64,000 bases of DNA from positions 445,984 through 509,983 of the forward strand of contig JAAXWF010000001.1 of the NCBI GenBank assembly GCA_013335095.1, in the 5' to 3' direction. Positions 27,001 through 30,000 of the stretch are shown here, in pieces. The first letter of the stretch is position 1. Each line of letters begins with the position of its first letter. A program made the position numbers. This DNA is from a candidate division WWE3 bacterium (GTDB lineage: Bacteria > Patescibacteriota > 4484-211 > GCA-002791395).

Positions 27001-30000
27001 ACCATAAGGCGATGTTATTTGGTACAGTGACTGGTACGGAAGAAACAAAAGACCTCCCATTGAGGCAGATAATTTCTCTTTTGCCAGTATAAATAGGAGA
27101 TATTCACTGATTCGCGTATACATTCTTCCTTATCCTAGCATGTTTGTAGTTCAAGTATAAAGGGGGATTTGCAAAGAAAAATATACTGTATAATCAAGTT
27201 ATCGGTAATGGTTTTTCTTTGTCATTGACAGGTAGCTGTTATGGTTGATAAAATCCAGGCGATAGTAAAAATTGGTATTGAATAATTTATGAATCAACAA
27301 TATGAACTTCTAGCTGTAATTGACCCGGACATGGATGAAGCTACCGTGACCTCATCGGTCGAGAAAGCAATATCCGAACTAAAAATAACCCAAGGTAAAA
27401 AAGATGTCTGGGGATTGCGGACTTTAGCGTACCCAATTAATTCAAAAAACCGTGGTCGTTATATCTTGTATGAATTATCAACGTCAGAGGGTGCTAGTAT
27501 CCAGGAGTTAAATCGAGAACTCTTGATAATTGACGGTGTTATTCGTTTCAATCTGGTAAAACAGGCCAAAAAGGGAAAGGGAGGGAAATAATCTCTCATG
27601 GCTGGCAGATCATTAAATAAAGTAATGCTCATTGGTAATTTAACCCGAGACCCAGAGCTTCGTTATACTGCAAGTGGTACTGCTGTTGTTTCTTTTAGTG
27701 TTGCAACCAATAGATCTTATACCCCAACTAACGCCTCTGAAGCTGTTGAAGACGTTGAATTTCATAACATAGTTGCGTGGGCAAAATTAGCCGAATTATG
27801 CGACAAACTTTTAAGCAAAGGTAAAAAAGTATATATCGAAGGTCGTCTTCAAACACGAGATTGGACCGATGAGCAGAGTGGTAAAAAGATGTATCGTACC
27901 GAGATCATTGCAGAAGAAATGATGATTTTATCTGGTACCGGTACCCGTGAAGATAATGGTCCCGCCGCTGGTGGAAATGATTCCGCACCAGATATCAATC
28001 AAGCAGCAAATTCAGATTTTAATGATGAGATTCCTTTCTAAATAAAGGGATTCTTGTCATGCGTGATATAATTTGACAGTACTATGCCAAAGCAACAGAA
28101 AAAACGTGGGGGTAAAAACCGAGATAAGCGCAACGAAGTAGTTGGTACAGAATGTTGGTTCTGTTCAAATACTGCACAGCCAGATTATAAAGAAGTTGAA
28201 GTATTGCGCGTATTTTTATCACCTCGTGGTAAAATCCTACCACGTCGAACAACTGGTACATGCGCCAAGCATCAGCGGGATCTGTCAGGATCAATAAAGC
28301 AGGCTCGTCAGGTTGCACTTATTCGTTAATTGATTTTCCAAGTGGTTTTTTCTACAACTTAGTTTGAAGCGAGGTATATATGGCTTGGAAGGTCGTAGGA
28401 TATGCGATTAATGATGCATGGGGAAGTGAGCACCGTGTATTAATTTATCGCAATAATGAGTTGGTCGGTACCTGGCGAAATATGCCAGCCAGTGATGGAG
28501 AGCGCGAACGGGAGATCGTTTTGTACGTTAAAGATCACGACGTACTTAGATTTGCCGTGGCGCGCGCTGGTTTAAACACGATTGATGTAGAGATCGGCAG
28601 TGATCAGTATCTAATGGGGGATAAATTCCCTATAGATGGTACGGTTACTGAAGGTGCTACCGAAGAATATCGATAAATCCGGTAAAGACTCTTTTACCGG
28701 ATATTTCATAAAGACCTATAATATATACAAAATACACATTGGTAGTGTATAATGTTTTTACGTGTCTGTTTAATGGGCTTTGAGCCCTCGTGGAAGCCGT
28801 TTACGGCTACAAGGAGGAGTGCCAATGGATCTAGGCACTTATCGACATCAGCGCCGTGGGGAAGCGCTGGTTGTCATGGTCTCGATCCTGGGAGTGGTTA
28901 GCCTGTGTGGCTTGCTTCTCCTGGTCCCCGGAGCCGGTCGGCACAGGGATTACTACCCGGCATACGGAGATCCGTATGCTTCAAGCTACAATCAGCCGGT
29001 ATCCTTGCCGACGCTCATGCCCACCATTCCGGCTCCGCCGGAGCAACCGTCCGGCTTAGTGACGGTTCGGCACGATACACCGCCTCCGCAGAAAGTCGTG
29101 ATCATCAACAACGGTAACGGGAGTGTTACTTATGTTGATACCCGCGAAACCGAGCGGTGGTGTATCTTTGTCAGGGATTGTCCGCCGTAGAGTCGTCGGG
29201 TTTTGTCGCAATCGTGTGGGGCCGGTCGAAAGGCCTGCCTCACACTTTTTTCACATTTAAAATAAAAGCCTATAATATATACAAAATACGCATTGGTAGT
29301 GTATAATGGTTTTACTTAACTATCGGGGGTACTCGGTGCCCCCTCTTGGAAGCTGCTTTTGCAGCTAGGCTTAAGGAGTGTTTTATGCCGGAACTATTGG
29401 ATTGGTTCCTCAAGGATCCCGGTCCTGATGGCGGTTCGTCCATCAACTGGGAGAGGGTAATCGCAGTTGGGCTGCTTATGGTAGTCATGGGATTTGCTGC
29501 GCAAGCGATCTCCCATGCTAGCAATGCTCTGCAGCCGAAGCAGGCCATTATCCAGGTCGCTGCAACGCCGACCCCGCAGATCATCGTACCCACGCCGGCC
29601 CCGACCCAGCCGCCGGCTCCGCCGATGCAGCCCGATCTCTCGGGCGCCCAGGTCGTGATCATGAATAATGGTGACGGCGACGTCACCTACGTCAATACCG
29701 GGGTGGACGTGCAGGTGTGCGCGTTCGTCCGGTACTGTCCGCCGCGATCTAGTCCGTAAGTTTCGTGTCCGCCAACGGGGTGTGGTGCGGGGATCTTCCC
29801 GCTCCACACCTTTTTTTGTACTATTTCATCATCTCGTAACCCATCCCGCTTCTGGTATACAATGGAATAACTGCTATGCCTAAACTTGACGAACGGGTAC
29901 TTGTAATTGATATTGGAGATGTTTTTGCTCATGGCATCCTTTACAAACGTGATTATGACCATGTCGAACTACTCGAACACCAACGCACACTTCGTGCTAT

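What the first reader, a model, noticed from the sequence alone, without database searches (positions are those of the whole stretch)
28715..29817. Tandem paralog pair: conserved promoter block, covarying leader hairpin, small TM protein with a C-terminal CxxxxxC domain, and terminator
Two adjacent units (28715-29251 and 29269-29817) share a near-identical 40-nt AT-rich promoter block containing two TATAAT boxes (cctataatatatacaaaatacRcattggtagtgtataatg). Both have a leader hairpin that differs by compensatory changes (agccgtttacggct versus agctgcttttgcagct) just upstream of the SD. Each then encodes a ~120-aa protein with a short N-region, one TM, a Pro-rich linker, and a conserved C-terminus (VVI[IM]NNG[ND]G.VTYV[DN]T...[WV]C[IA]FVR[DY]CPP), and each ends in a gtgtgg...ccacac terminator. 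Conservation of non-coding leader structure between paralogs implies post-transcriptional control, such as a thermosensor, RNase site or sRNA target. The secreted Cys-pair domain could be a small disulfide-stabilised extracytoplasmic module.
Basis: seen in the sequence. Interest (0 to 1): 0.65.

Follow-up and report, generated by a model that had tools for sequence, protein, structure and literature searches.

The report
Duplicated orphan membrane-protein gene cassette
Two adjacent self-contained genes in a WWE3 (candidate phyla radiation) bacterium encode small membrane proteins with no detected relatives, and they belong to a larger set of GC-rich genes, absent from related genomes, whose origin and function are unknown.

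Summary
Two tandem units lie 554 bp apart. Each has a promoter block (39 of 40 nt identical), a leader with two stem-loops, a strong Shine-Dalgarno (SD) site, an ORF of 121 or 124 aa, and a strong intrinsic terminator.

The ORFs are real coding sequences. The duplication is old, because synonymous sites in the shared domain are near saturation.

No relative of either protein was found in about 15 billion proteins, or in Pfam, NCBIfam, PHROGs, PADLOC, PDB, phage or plasmid collections.

The main new result is context. The pair is one of at least 13 GC3-rich genes in the window. Most carry a strong SD and a promoter-like box, many also an intrinsic terminator, and none has a family assignment. 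None of the 11 in the syntenic span has a counterpart in relatives. Native genes are AT-rich and mostly lack an SD.

I read the pair as a duplicated, probably imported, moron-like expression cassette for a surface-displayed Cys-pair module. The leader hairpins are conserved through three compensated pairs. They do not contain the SD, so a classic thermosensor is unlikely and a regulatory role is unproven. Function is unknown. Interest is moderate.

The parts
28715..28754 (+). Unit A promoter block, with -10-like TATAAT boxes at 28717-28722 and 28748-28753 and a -35-like TATACA at 28724-28729. Conservation extends to 28709-28761.
   Evidence: It is 39 of 40 nt identical to 29269-29308, with no chance matches in shuffles. 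The promoter scan calls it. The extended stretch is 49 of 53 nt identical.
28775..28787 (+). Unit A leader hairpin 1 (GGGCU-UUG-AGCCC). Its 3' arm overlaps the conserved CCCTCGTGGAAGC stretch (28785-28797), which in the A minimum-energy fold pairs with the SD instead.
28795..28808 (+). Unit A leader hairpin 2 (AGCCG-UUUA-CGGCU), ending 3 nt upstream of the SD.
   Evidence: It forms at about 100% ensemble probability at 10-45 C. Pair list.
28812..28817 (+). Unit A Shine-Dalgarno AGGAGG, 7 nt before the ATG.
   Evidence: Duplex energy with the anti-SD is -11.2 kcal/mol.
28825..29190 (+). Gene A, 121 aa: short basic N-terminus, transmembrane helix at about residues 14-34, Pro-rich linker, and C-terminal 32-aa module (nt 29092-29187) KVVIINNGNGSVTYVDTRETERWCIFVRDCPP. 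It is not annotated in GenBank.
   Evidence: The gene call exists only in the Logan assembly.
29214..29251 (+). Unit A intrinsic terminator (GTGTGGGGCC...GGCCTGCCTCACAC followed by T6).
   Evidence: Folding energy -24.6 kcal/mol, z = -2.75. Pair list.
29269..29308 (+). Unit B promoter block, with TATAAT boxes at 29271-29276 and 29302-29307.
29325..29343 (+). Unit B leader hairpin 1 (GGGGGUAC-UCG-GUGCCCCC, -13.5 kcal/mol). The conserved CCCTCTTGGAAGC stretch lies at 29341-29353.
29351..29366 (+). Unit B leader hairpin 2 (AGCUGC-UUUU-GCAGCU), ending 6 nt upstream of the SD AAGGAG (29373-29378).
29385..29759 (+). Gene B, 124 aa (GenBank HGA91_02565, hypothetical protein): acidic N-terminus, transmembrane helix at about residues 25-43, Pro-rich linker, and C-terminal module (nt 29649-29744) QVVIMNNGDGDVTYVNTGVDVQVCAFVRYCPP followed by RSSP.
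29778..29817 (+). Unit B intrinsic terminator (GGTGTGGTGCGGGG...CCCGCTCCACACC followed by T7).
   Evidence: Folding energy -28.5 kcal/mol, z = -4.15, with 0 of 200 shuffles as good.
28380..28700 (+). Upstream neighbour orf98 (28380-28676) with its 3' hairpin (28679-28700). It is also absent from relatives but has native-like GC3 (0.40). It marks the left edge of the lineage-specific insertion between rpsR and the conserved 373-aa gene.

Best explanation
The locus is an old tandem duplication of a self-contained expression cassette. The cassette is compositionally foreign to its host, a candidate division WWE3 bacterium.

**Anatomy.** Each unit is a monocistronic transcription unit with these parts, in order:
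- an AT-rich sigma70-type promoter region;
- a 5' UTR of about 65-70 nt with two GC-rich stem-loops;
- a canonical SD;
- an ORF of about 120 aa;
- a strong intrinsic terminator.

**Product (inferred).** Each protein is a single-pass membrane protein. It probably has its N-terminus inside the cell, with a Pro-rich stalk holding a 32-residue module (beta-hairpin plus CX5C-PP) outside the membrane.

**Context.** The pair sits between rpsR and a conserved 373-aa gene. Three of the four distinct relative lineages examined have nothing at that site, and the fourth carries an unrelated GC-rich orphan gene. The pair is one of at least 13 GC3-rich ORFs in the window. Most of them carry a strong SD and a promoter-like box, and many also carry an intrinsic terminator. 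None of the 11 in the syntenic span has a counterpart in relatives. They resemble phage 'morons', but they lie in a housekeeping chromosome region.

**Most likely operation.**
- Both genes are transcribed from the same nearly invariant promoter or operator block and are therefore co-regulated.
- The leader stem-loops act as mRNA-stability or translation-tuning elements for SD-led messages. Native messages in this organism are mostly SD-less.
- The proteins are membrane-anchored surface modules of unknown partner.

**Shown versus inferred.**
- Shown: the anatomy, coding status, age of the duplication, absence of homologs, absence from relatives, and atypical composition.
- Inferred: foreign origin, topology, the role of the leader, and co-regulation.
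For: **Anatomy.**

**Coding status.**
- Differences in the shared domain fall 10, 7 and 16 by codon position. Ten of the 19 codons with a conserved amino acid differ only synonymously.
- GC by codon position is 0.62/0.48/0.63 in A and 0.64/0.47/0.71 in B.
- SD spacing is optimal.
- Each protein has one transmembrane helix.

**Orphan status.**
- Only self-hits came back from 5.8 billion clusters.
- The exhaustive HMMER search of 1.84 billion representatives gave only self-hits plus short repeat-motif matches.
- Pfam, NCBIfam, PHROGs, PADLOC and PDB gave nothing.
- Phage, plasmid, viral and genome collections gave nothing.

**Insertion.**
- In L004, L005, L008 and L009, rpsR is followed directly by the ortholog of the 373-aa gene.
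- L003 and L007 carry a different GC3-rich gene of 111 aa at that site, hydrophobic on inspection.
- Across window 8.8-38.7 kb, all 11 GC3-rich ORFs lack counterparts, while nearly all low-GC3 genes have orthologs in the same order.

**Class signals.**
- 11 of 13 GC3-rich ORFs have a strong SD, against 3 of 47 low-GC3 ORFs (Fisher p = 7e-8).
- Promoter-like boxes, hairpin-forming upstream stretches and terminators are visible for many of them.
- L003 has two such cassettes of its own.

**Assembly.** The Logan assembly of SRR11449211 matches 11,556 bp of the window with no mismatches. The L003 insertion is identical in two separate ENA assembly records.
Against: - No donor or mobile-element signature was found. 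The cassettes share no DNA with one another.
- For the cassette proteins queried by homology (A, B and the 239-aa ORF at 17811-18530), no relative turned up in phage, viral or plasmid collections. Viral scans with the ORFs at 7083-7601 and 20849-21655 were also empty.
- Orphans with no relatives anywhere are equally compatible with fast-evolving native genes.
- A and B have diverged to synonymous saturation yet both stay GC3-rich. This needs either divergence before import or active maintenance of GC-richness.
- The near-identity of the promoter block could come from gene conversion rather than a shared regulator.
- The transcription start site is unknown. If the upstream TATAAT is the one used, part of the 'promoter block' is transcribed leader.
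- Hairpin 1 is not in unit A's minimum-energy fold.
- Charge bias around the transmembrane helix is weak, especially for B. The structure models are low-confidence.
- There is no expression or proteomic evidence.
Confidence: 0.6

Rival explanations
1. The leader is a dedicated post-transcriptional switch. The conserved CCCUC(N)UGGAAGC stretch would act as an anti-SD. It would be either locked into hairpin 1 (translation on) or paired with the SD (translation off), in response to temperature, a ligand, a protein or a small RNA.
For: - The 13-nt stretch between and overlapping the two hairpins is 12 of 13 nt identical, while the rest of the leader is about half identical.
- In unit A the minimum-energy fold pairs CCCUC with GGAGG around hairpin 2. 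The mean SD unpaired probability is 0.24.
- Both hairpins are kept by compensated changes.
Against: - In B the SD is not paired with that stretch, and hairpin 1 is very stable at -13.5 kcal/mol.
- Predicted SD accessibility changes only from 0.18 to 0.27 in A and from 0.36 to 0.49 in B between 10 and 45 C.
- No Rfam family matches.
- There are only two sequences.
- The stretch is not found significantly elsewhere in the window.
- GC-rich upstream stretches are also seen in other, unrelated cassettes.
Confidence: 0.2
2. The genes are native, rapidly evolving WWE3 surface-protein genes rather than imports. Their GC-richness and SD-led leaders would be maintained by selection, for example for mRNA structure or expression level. 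Their absence from relatives would reflect rapid gain and loss.
For: - Both paralogs stay GC3-rich (0.63 and 0.71) despite synonymous saturation.
- No donor homolog was found anywhere.
- The promoters are AT-rich, like the host genome.
- The same type of gene occurs in the related L003 lineage.
Against: - GC3 is nearly double that of every conserved gene.
- The cassettes are absent from all syntenic relatives examined.
- Their translation signals differ from native genes.
- I know of no mechanism that keeps a subset of genes GC-rich in an AT-biased genome.
Confidence: 0.2
3. The near-identity of the promoter block is a by-product of a recent short gene-conversion tract between the tandem copies. 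On this view it does not mark a regulator binding site or any other extra constraint.
For: - Tandem repeats 554 bp apart are good conversion substrates.
- The block is 39 of 40 nt identical, while the conserved coding domain is only 63 of 96 nt identical.
Against: - The conserved tract coincides precisely with the promoter region and falls off sharply on both sides.
- No other converted tract is seen in the units.
- This rival is not exclusive of the main explanation.
Confidence: 0.25
4. The units are not protein-coding. They would be GC-rich structured non-coding RNA genes, with long ORFs arising because GC-rich sequence has few stop codons.
For: - They form GC-rich islands in an AT-rich genome, each with its own promoter and terminator.
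- Long ORFs also occur on the opposite strand.
Against: - The substitution pattern is dominated by third-codon positions, with 10 synonymous codon differences.
- There is no indel across the 96-nt shared domain.
- SD spacing is canonical.
- Both have a transmembrane helix at an equivalent position.
- GC is lowest at codon position 2 in A and B.
- No Rfam hit was found.
Confidence: 0.03
5. The pair is a bacteriocin-like or toxin/immunity-like system. This idea rests on the NGNG...C...C motif, which is reminiscent of the class IIa YGNGV disulfide box, and on the pairing of two small membrane proteins.
For: It rests only on motif-level resemblance and the small size of the proteins.
Against: - Nothing in Pfam, the library that holds bacteriocin families, matches at E up to 1.
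- The Cys spacing is CX5C and lies 15 residues downstream of the Gly motif.
- There is no double-glycine leader.
- The N-terminal transmembrane anchor and Pro-rich stalk do not fit.
- No transporter or immunity gene is adjacent.
- PADLOC finds nothing.
Confidence: 0.04

Closest known systems
Phage 'morons' (autonomous extra genes in lambdoid prophages; concept recalled from my own knowledge of Hendrix and colleagues)
   Same: - It is a single gene with its own sigma70-type promoter and factor-independent terminator.
- It is inserted between two genes that are adjacent in relatives.
- Its nucleotide composition differs from its surroundings.
   Different: - It is not in a prophage. The flanks are rpsF-ssb-rpsR and conserved WWE3 genes.
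- There are no PHROG hits.
- At least 13 such units lie within 64 kb of chromosome.
- This example is tandemly duplicated.
Small single-pass membrane proteins with a Pro-rich spacer and a small C-terminal domain (TonB-like or anti-sigma-like architecture)
   Same: The order of parts matches: short N-terminal tail, one transmembrane helix, a Pro-rich extended linker, and a compact C-terminal module.
   Different: - There is no sequence or profile similarity to any such family.
- The C-terminal module is only about 32 residues long, with a CX5C-PP tail.
5' UTR stabiliser stem-loops of highly expressed bacterial mRNAs (ompA, aprE, cryIIIA STAB-SD; from my own knowledge)
   Same: - Stable stem-loops sit in the 5' UTR of a strongly signalled gene.
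- The SD is left outside the hairpin.
   Different: - Hairpin 1 begins 11-15 nt from the inferred 5' end rather than at it.
- The transcription start site is unmapped.
- No stability data exist.
RNA thermometers (ROSE, fourU)
   Same: It is a short hairpin-containing leader immediately upstream of a start codon.
   Different: - The SD is not inside the conserved hairpin.
- Rfam does not match.
- The predicted SD accessibility responds only slightly to temperature.
Horizontally acquired genomic islets of orphan genes in bacterial chromosomes
   Same: - GC3 is atypical.
- The genes are lineage-specific and lack homologs.
   Different: - The units are very small (0.4-2.9 kb) and numerous.
- Within this 64-kb window there is no tRNA gene.
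- The units share no flanking repeat.
- Most carry a strong SD and a promoter-like box, and several an intrinsic terminator, in a genome whose own genes mostly lack an SD.

Membership tests
Phage moron | Own promoter and own intrinsic terminator flanking a single ORF | tested here: met
   Promoter-like sites are called in both blocks. Both terminators fold strongly, with z = -2.75 and -4.15.
Phage moron | Inserted between genes that are adjacent in relatives, with different base composition | tested here: met
   rpsR and the 373-aa gene are adjacent in L004, L005, L008 and L009. GC3 is 0.63 and 0.71 against 0.26-0.40 in native genes.
Phage moron | Located inside a prophage genome | tested here: not met
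   The flanks are housekeeping genes. There are no PHROG hits for A, B or the neighbours, and no match in phage or viral collections.
RNA thermometer (ROSE or fourU) | SD or start codon sequestered within the temperature-labile hairpin | tested here: not met
   Hairpin 2 ends 3 nt (A) and 6 nt (B) before the SD. SD unpaired probability changes by 0.13 or less between 10 and 45 C.
Any Rfam cis-regulatory RNA or small RNA family | Covariance-model score at or above the gathering threshold | tested here: not met
   No hits at gathering score over the whole window. In 28650-29900 only chance-level hits appeared, with E of 2.5 or more.
Diversity-generating retroelement (DGR) target (variable and template repeats) | Repeat copies differ almost only at adenines of one copy | tested here: not met
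   The 33 differences in the 96-nt shared domain include T>C (9), C>G (4), G>A (3) and others. Only 10 involve an A in copy A.
Class IIa (pediocin-like) bacteriocin | YGNGV box with CXXXXC directly downstream, a double-glycine leader, and a match to a Pfam bacteriocin family | tested here: not met
   The sequence reads NNGNGSV...(15 aa)...CX5C. There is no GG leader, and no Pfam hit at E up to 1.
Type IV pilin or pseudopilin | N-terminal G/(F,M)xxxE prepilin motif ahead of the hydrophobic segment | tested here: not met
   A has RRG-EALVV, with the E at +1 rather than +5. B has no such motif. There are no Pfam or NCBIfam pilin hits.
Integron gene cassette | attC recombination site at the 3' end and a nearby integrase; cassettes usually lack promoters | not tested
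   The units carry their own promoters, which is atypical for cassettes. I did not run an attC or integrase search. The islands share no DNA repeat.
Disulfide-stabilised extracytoplasmic mini-domain | C-terminus outside the membrane and the two Cys residues oxidised to a disulfide | not testable with these tools
   The AlphaFold2 models have pLDDT 53-60, with the Cys tail below 50. Charge bias around the transmembrane helix is weak.

The most novel reading that the evidence does not exclude
The A/B pair would be the duplicated, co-regulated member of a previously undescribed class of self-expressing orphan gene cassettes. These cassettes pepper the chromosomes of one WWE3 (candidate phyla radiation) clade.

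They are GC3-rich, mostly SD-led, and often promoter- and terminator-equipped. They make up roughly one fifth of the ORFs of 90 codons or more in this window. Native genes are AT-rich and largely SD-less, and they often carry a TATAAT box 6-12 nt before the ATG.

A and B remain GC3-rich despite synonymous saturation. The class may therefore be kept compositionally distinct by an unknown process, or be supplied continuously by an unknown GC-rich donor such as a host, virus or other element.
Probability: 0.15. Interest if true: 0.7.

Novelty: new member of a known kind. Interest (0 to 1): 0.4.

Why it matters
The pair alone adds one more orphan small-membrane-protein family with tidy expression signals, which is of limited consequence.

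The context is more useful. This ultra-small episymbiont-type genome appears to hold two gene populations:
- a native set that is AT-rich and mostly lacks an SD;
- an accessory set that is GC-rich, mostly SD-led, and often carries its own promoter-like box and terminator.

If that holds, it gives a simple sequence rule for separating core from accessory genes in WWE3 genomes. It also points to substantial gene influx, or to an unusual compositional regime, in a lineage usually described as streamlined. Finally, it supplies a natural duplicated pair for testing what a conserved promoter block and leader hairpins do in an organism that cannot yet be cultured.

Tried and rejected
- **Homolog searches for A and B.** I ran a word-indexed search of 5.8 billion clusters and an exhaustive HMMER search of 1.84 billion representatives with the C-terminal profile. 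Only short NNGxGxVTY-type repeat motifs in unrelated repeat proteins came back. Pfam, NCBIfam, PHROGs, PADLOC and PDB gave nothing. Phage tblastn, plasmid blastn, IMG/VR and genome contigs gave nothing.
- **More copies of the promoter block.** There are none in the window and none in JGI metagenomes. Genome contigs evidently does not hold this genome, since even the self-hit was missing, so the rest of the 536-kb contig could not be scanned.
- **Syntenic relatives through genome contigs.** Nothing was found.
- **RNAalifold and MAFFT on the leaders.** The sequence alignment puts the stems out of register, so no consensus structure was obtained. I replaced this with a pair-by-pair comparison.
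- **A shared [CT]TGGAA leader motif among cassettes.** It is not enriched: 3 observed against 1 expected, p = 0.08.
- **A uORF starting in the -10 box (ATG at 28752 and 29306).** Its length and sequence are not conserved between the units, read directly.
- **Homology of the L003 orphan gene, or of other island proteins, to A or B.** None was found. The 'YCPP' and 'PGPD' matches are at chance level.
- **DGR, pilin, lipoprotein and bacteriocin readings.** The defining motifs are absent (see the membership table).
- **Structure prediction.** Both models are low-confidence, so I ran no fold search.
- **Literature.** A search on candidate phyla radiation SD or leaderless usage, and on the SRA run, returned nothing relevant.
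Full report

Yes. Reading 28400-30200 and aligning the two units confirms a tandem repeat with a 554-bp period.

- The 40-nt block CCTATAATATATACAAAATAC[A/G]CATTGGTAGTGTATAATG occurs at 28715-28754 and 29269-29308. It occurs nowhere else in the window even with 3 mismatches, and no match appeared in 100 shuffles. 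Conservation extends to 49 of 53 nt.
- Each block holds two TATAAT hexamers, and the promoter scan scores both.
- Downstream lie the hairpins AGCCGtttaCGGCT and AGCTGCttttGCAGCT, then the SD sites AGGAGG and AAGGAG at 6-7 nt from an ATG, then ORFs of 121 and 124 aa.
- The GTGTGG...CCACAC stem-loops with T-runs fold at -24.6 and -28.5 kcal/mol, with z = -2.75 and -4.15.
A 12-of-13-identical stretch, CCCTCNTGGAAGC, bridges the two hairpins.

**2. Are the ORFs genes, and how old is the duplication?**

The proteins are similar only in the last 32 residues (59% identity, E = 6e-11). Without composition correction the similarity extends weakly into the Pro-rich linker.

In that 96-nt domain there is no indel. 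The 33 differences fall 10, 7 and 16 by codon position. Ten of the 19 codons that keep the same amino acid differ synonymously. That is the signature of purifying selection on a peptide, and of synonymous sites close to saturation.

In both genes GC is lowest at codon position 2, as expected for coding sequence. Each protein has a single hydrophobic helix and 12-14% proline. The non-coding-RNA reading is therefore rejected.

**3. The leader**

Comparing pairs from the outside of each stem inward gives the following.

| Hairpin | Shared pairs | Compensated changes | Extra pairs in B |
|---|---|---|---|
| Hairpin 1 | three G-C pairs | C-G to G-C, and U-A to G-C | three |
| Hairpin 2 | A-U, G-C, C-G and G-C | C-G to U-A | one |

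In total, 3 of 10 shared pairs are changed on both sides and none is broken.

- Hairpin 2 is present at about 100% probability in both ensembles from 10 to 45 C.
- Hairpin 1 is in B's minimum-energy fold. In A it competes with pairing of CCCUC to the SD.
- Whole-leader stability is significant for B (z = -2.68) but not for A (z = -0.66).
- A hairpin of the observed strength at that position arises in 10% (A) and 4% (B) of mononucleotide shuffles.

So the structure is probably selected, but two sequences are too few to say what for. The SD is outside hairpin 2, temperature hardly alters predicted SD exposure, and Rfam has no match. A classic thermometer or a known riboswitch is therefore not supported.

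**4. What are the proteins?**

They are orphans.

- The profile of A and B finds only A and B among 5.8 billion clusters.
- The exhaustive HMMER search with the C-terminal profile finds A, B and a few repeat proteins. Those match only the generic strand motif NNGxGxVTY.
- Pfam, NCBIfam, PHROGs, PADLOC, PDB sequences, GenBank phages, PLSDB plasmids, IMG/VR and GTDB genomes give nothing.
- AlphaFold2 predicts the transmembrane helix (residues 7-33) and a beta-hairpin (VVIIN and VTYVD) at low confidence, with pLDDT 53 for the full length and 60 for the domain. It gives nothing reliable for the CX5C-PP tail.

Protein B is GenBank HGA91_02565, a 'hypothetical protein' from a candidate division WWE3 bacterium. 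Protein A is not annotated there, because HGA91_02560 is the upstream orf98. A appears only as a Logan gene call.

**5. Context changes the picture**

*Synteny at the site.* Orthologs of the downstream 373-aa gene were found in four other lineages, and their contigs were fetched.

- In L004/L005, L008 and L009, rpsR is followed directly by that gene.
- In L003/L007, the closest relative (58% identity in the 373-aa protein), the same site holds a different gene of 111 aa, hydrophobic on inspection and GC3-rich. It has its own TTGACT-17-TATAAT promoter, a leader hairpin, an SD and a terminator. It is not homologous to A or B.

*Composition.* A and B have GC3 of 0.63 and 0.71. rpsF, ssb, rpsR, cysS and the 373- and 367-aa genes have 0.26-0.37. 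A GC scan shows many such islands in the window.

*Window-wide synteny.* I mapped all window genes between 8.8 and 38.7 kb against the relatives. Every one of the 11 GC3-rich ORFs lacks a counterpart. Nearly all low-GC3 genes have orthologs in the same order.

*Expression signals.*
- Inspection of the flanks shows that many islands have a promoter-like box, GC-rich hairpin-forming upstream sequence, an SD and an intrinsic terminator. I read these by eye and did not fold or scan them.
- A strong SD accompanies 11 of 13 GC3-rich ORFs but only 3 of 47 low-GC3 ORFs (Fisher p = 7e-8).
- Native genes often carry a TATAAT box 6-12 nt before the ATG, which suggests leaderless or near-leaderless messages.

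*Other features of the class.*
- None of the nine GC3-rich island proteins scanned has a Pfam, PHROG or PADLOC assignment.
- The 239-aa island protein also has no homolog in 5.8 billion clusters. Three island proteins have no close relative in IMG/VR.
- The islands share no DNA with each other apart from the A/B block.
- L003 has two such cassettes of its own, and 21 kb of L004 has none.

*Assembly check.* An assembly artefact is unlikely. The Logan assembly matches 11.6 kb of the window exactly, and the L003 insertion is identical in two separate ENA assembly records. The Logan assembly and the deposited genome may well derive from the same reads, so that agreement tests the assembler rather than the data.

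**6. Best explanation**

The finding is a duplicated member of a class of compositionally foreign, largely self-contained orphan-gene cassettes. They are moron-like, but they sit in a housekeeping chromosome region. They interrupt the conserved gene order of this WWE3 lineage.

Each unit should give a short monocistronic mRNA. The two share a promoter or operator region that is far better conserved (39 of 40 nt) than the selected coding domain (63 of 96 nt). That implies either constraint beyond what a sigma70 promoter needs (a shared regulator, an UP element or overlapping promoters) or local gene conversion.

The products are most simply read as N-in, C-out single-pass membrane proteins that hold a 32-residue Cys-pair module on a Pro-rich stalk. 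I consider the leader hairpins more likely to be stability or translation-tuning elements of SD-led foreign messages than a sensor. This part is inference.

**7. What remains unexplained**

A and B are saturated at synonymous sites, yet both stay GC3-rich in an AT-biased genome, and their AT-rich promoter block is nearly identical.

- One possibility is that the pair diverged in a GC-rich donor and was imported as a block.
- The other is that something maintains the composition of these genes.

No donor, mobile-element signature or insertion scar was found.

**8. Novelty and score**

The protein family is new in the sense that it has no detected relatives. The kind of thing is known: lineage-specific orphan genes with their own signals, and small single-pass membrane proteins. 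The genome-wide dichotomy is the more interesting lead. It rests on one 64-kb window plus a few relatives. Interest is 0.4.

Noticed in passing
window 483-827, 7083-7601, 11788-12093, 15825-18530 (four ORFs), 20849-22375 (two ORFs), 24069-24758(-), 34641-35009(-), 47586-48227, 48386-48757: There are many GC-rich ORFs (most with GC3 0.53-0.76; two are intermediate at 0.46-0.48). Most have a strong SD and a promoter-like box, and many also an intrinsic terminator. Those in the syntenic span are absent from WWE3 relatives, and none of those scanned has a family assignment at curated thresholds. Most have a strong SD, whereas native genes do not (11 of 13 against 3 of 47, p = 7e-8).
   Followed up: yes
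window-wide, e.g. upstream of 3565, 7734, 10969-11691(-), 29876, 33376, 40333-41322(-): Native low-GC genes often have a TATAAT-like box only 6-12 nt before the ATG and no SD. This suggests leaderless or near-leaderless mRNAs as the default in this organism.
   Followed up: partly
L003 2850-3420 (identical in L007 2860-3430); also L003 7058-7537: The closest relative carries a different GC3-rich orphan gene of 111 aa, hydrophobic on inspection, with its own promoter, leader hairpin (CCTGCgcgaGCAGG), SD and terminator. It sits at the same rpsR/373-aa-gene junction, so this junction is a recurrent insertion site. A second GC3-rich orphan gene lies between the genes for the S41-family (CtpB-like) and trypsin/PDZ (HtrA-like) proteases.
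   Followed up: partly
window 28825-29190: Gene A is missing from the GenBank annotation of this genome (HGA91_02560 is orf98 and HGA91_02565 is gene B). It has been called only in the Logan assembly.
   Followed up: yes
window 29876-32107: Two adjacent genes of 373 and 367 aa are conserved in all WWE3 relatives found. They have no Pfam or NCBIfam assignment. They sit directly upstream of genes for an S41-family (CtpB-like) protease and a trypsin/PDZ (HtrA-like) protease, so this may be a conserved envelope-related operon of unknown function.
   Followed up: partly
window 26311-27123 (-): A 270-aa protein has a PaaX central Cas2-like domain (PF20803, E = 3.6e-12). It is conserved at the same position in L003, between cysS and rpsF.
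   Followed up: no
window 48386-48757: A 123-aa PadR-like winged-helix regulator (NCBIfam E = 3e-6, far below the curated cut-offs) has intermediate GC3 (0.46) and the strongest SD in the window (-13.0 kcal/mol).
   Followed up: no
window 28733-28750 and 29287-29304: There is an imperfect dyad, ATAC[A/G]C-ATTGGTA-GTGTAT, between the -35-like and -10 boxes of the block. The single A/G difference between the copies would keep pairing as G-U if this part were transcribed. It could be an operator half-site pair or an RNA hairpin, depending on which TATAAT box is used.
   Followed up: no
window 20849-21655: The 268-aa GC-rich orphan protein contains 'VVLYCPPS', which resembles the 'FVRYCPP' tail of protein B. 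The match covers only 6 residues (E = 0.64), so it is probably chance.
   Followed up: partly
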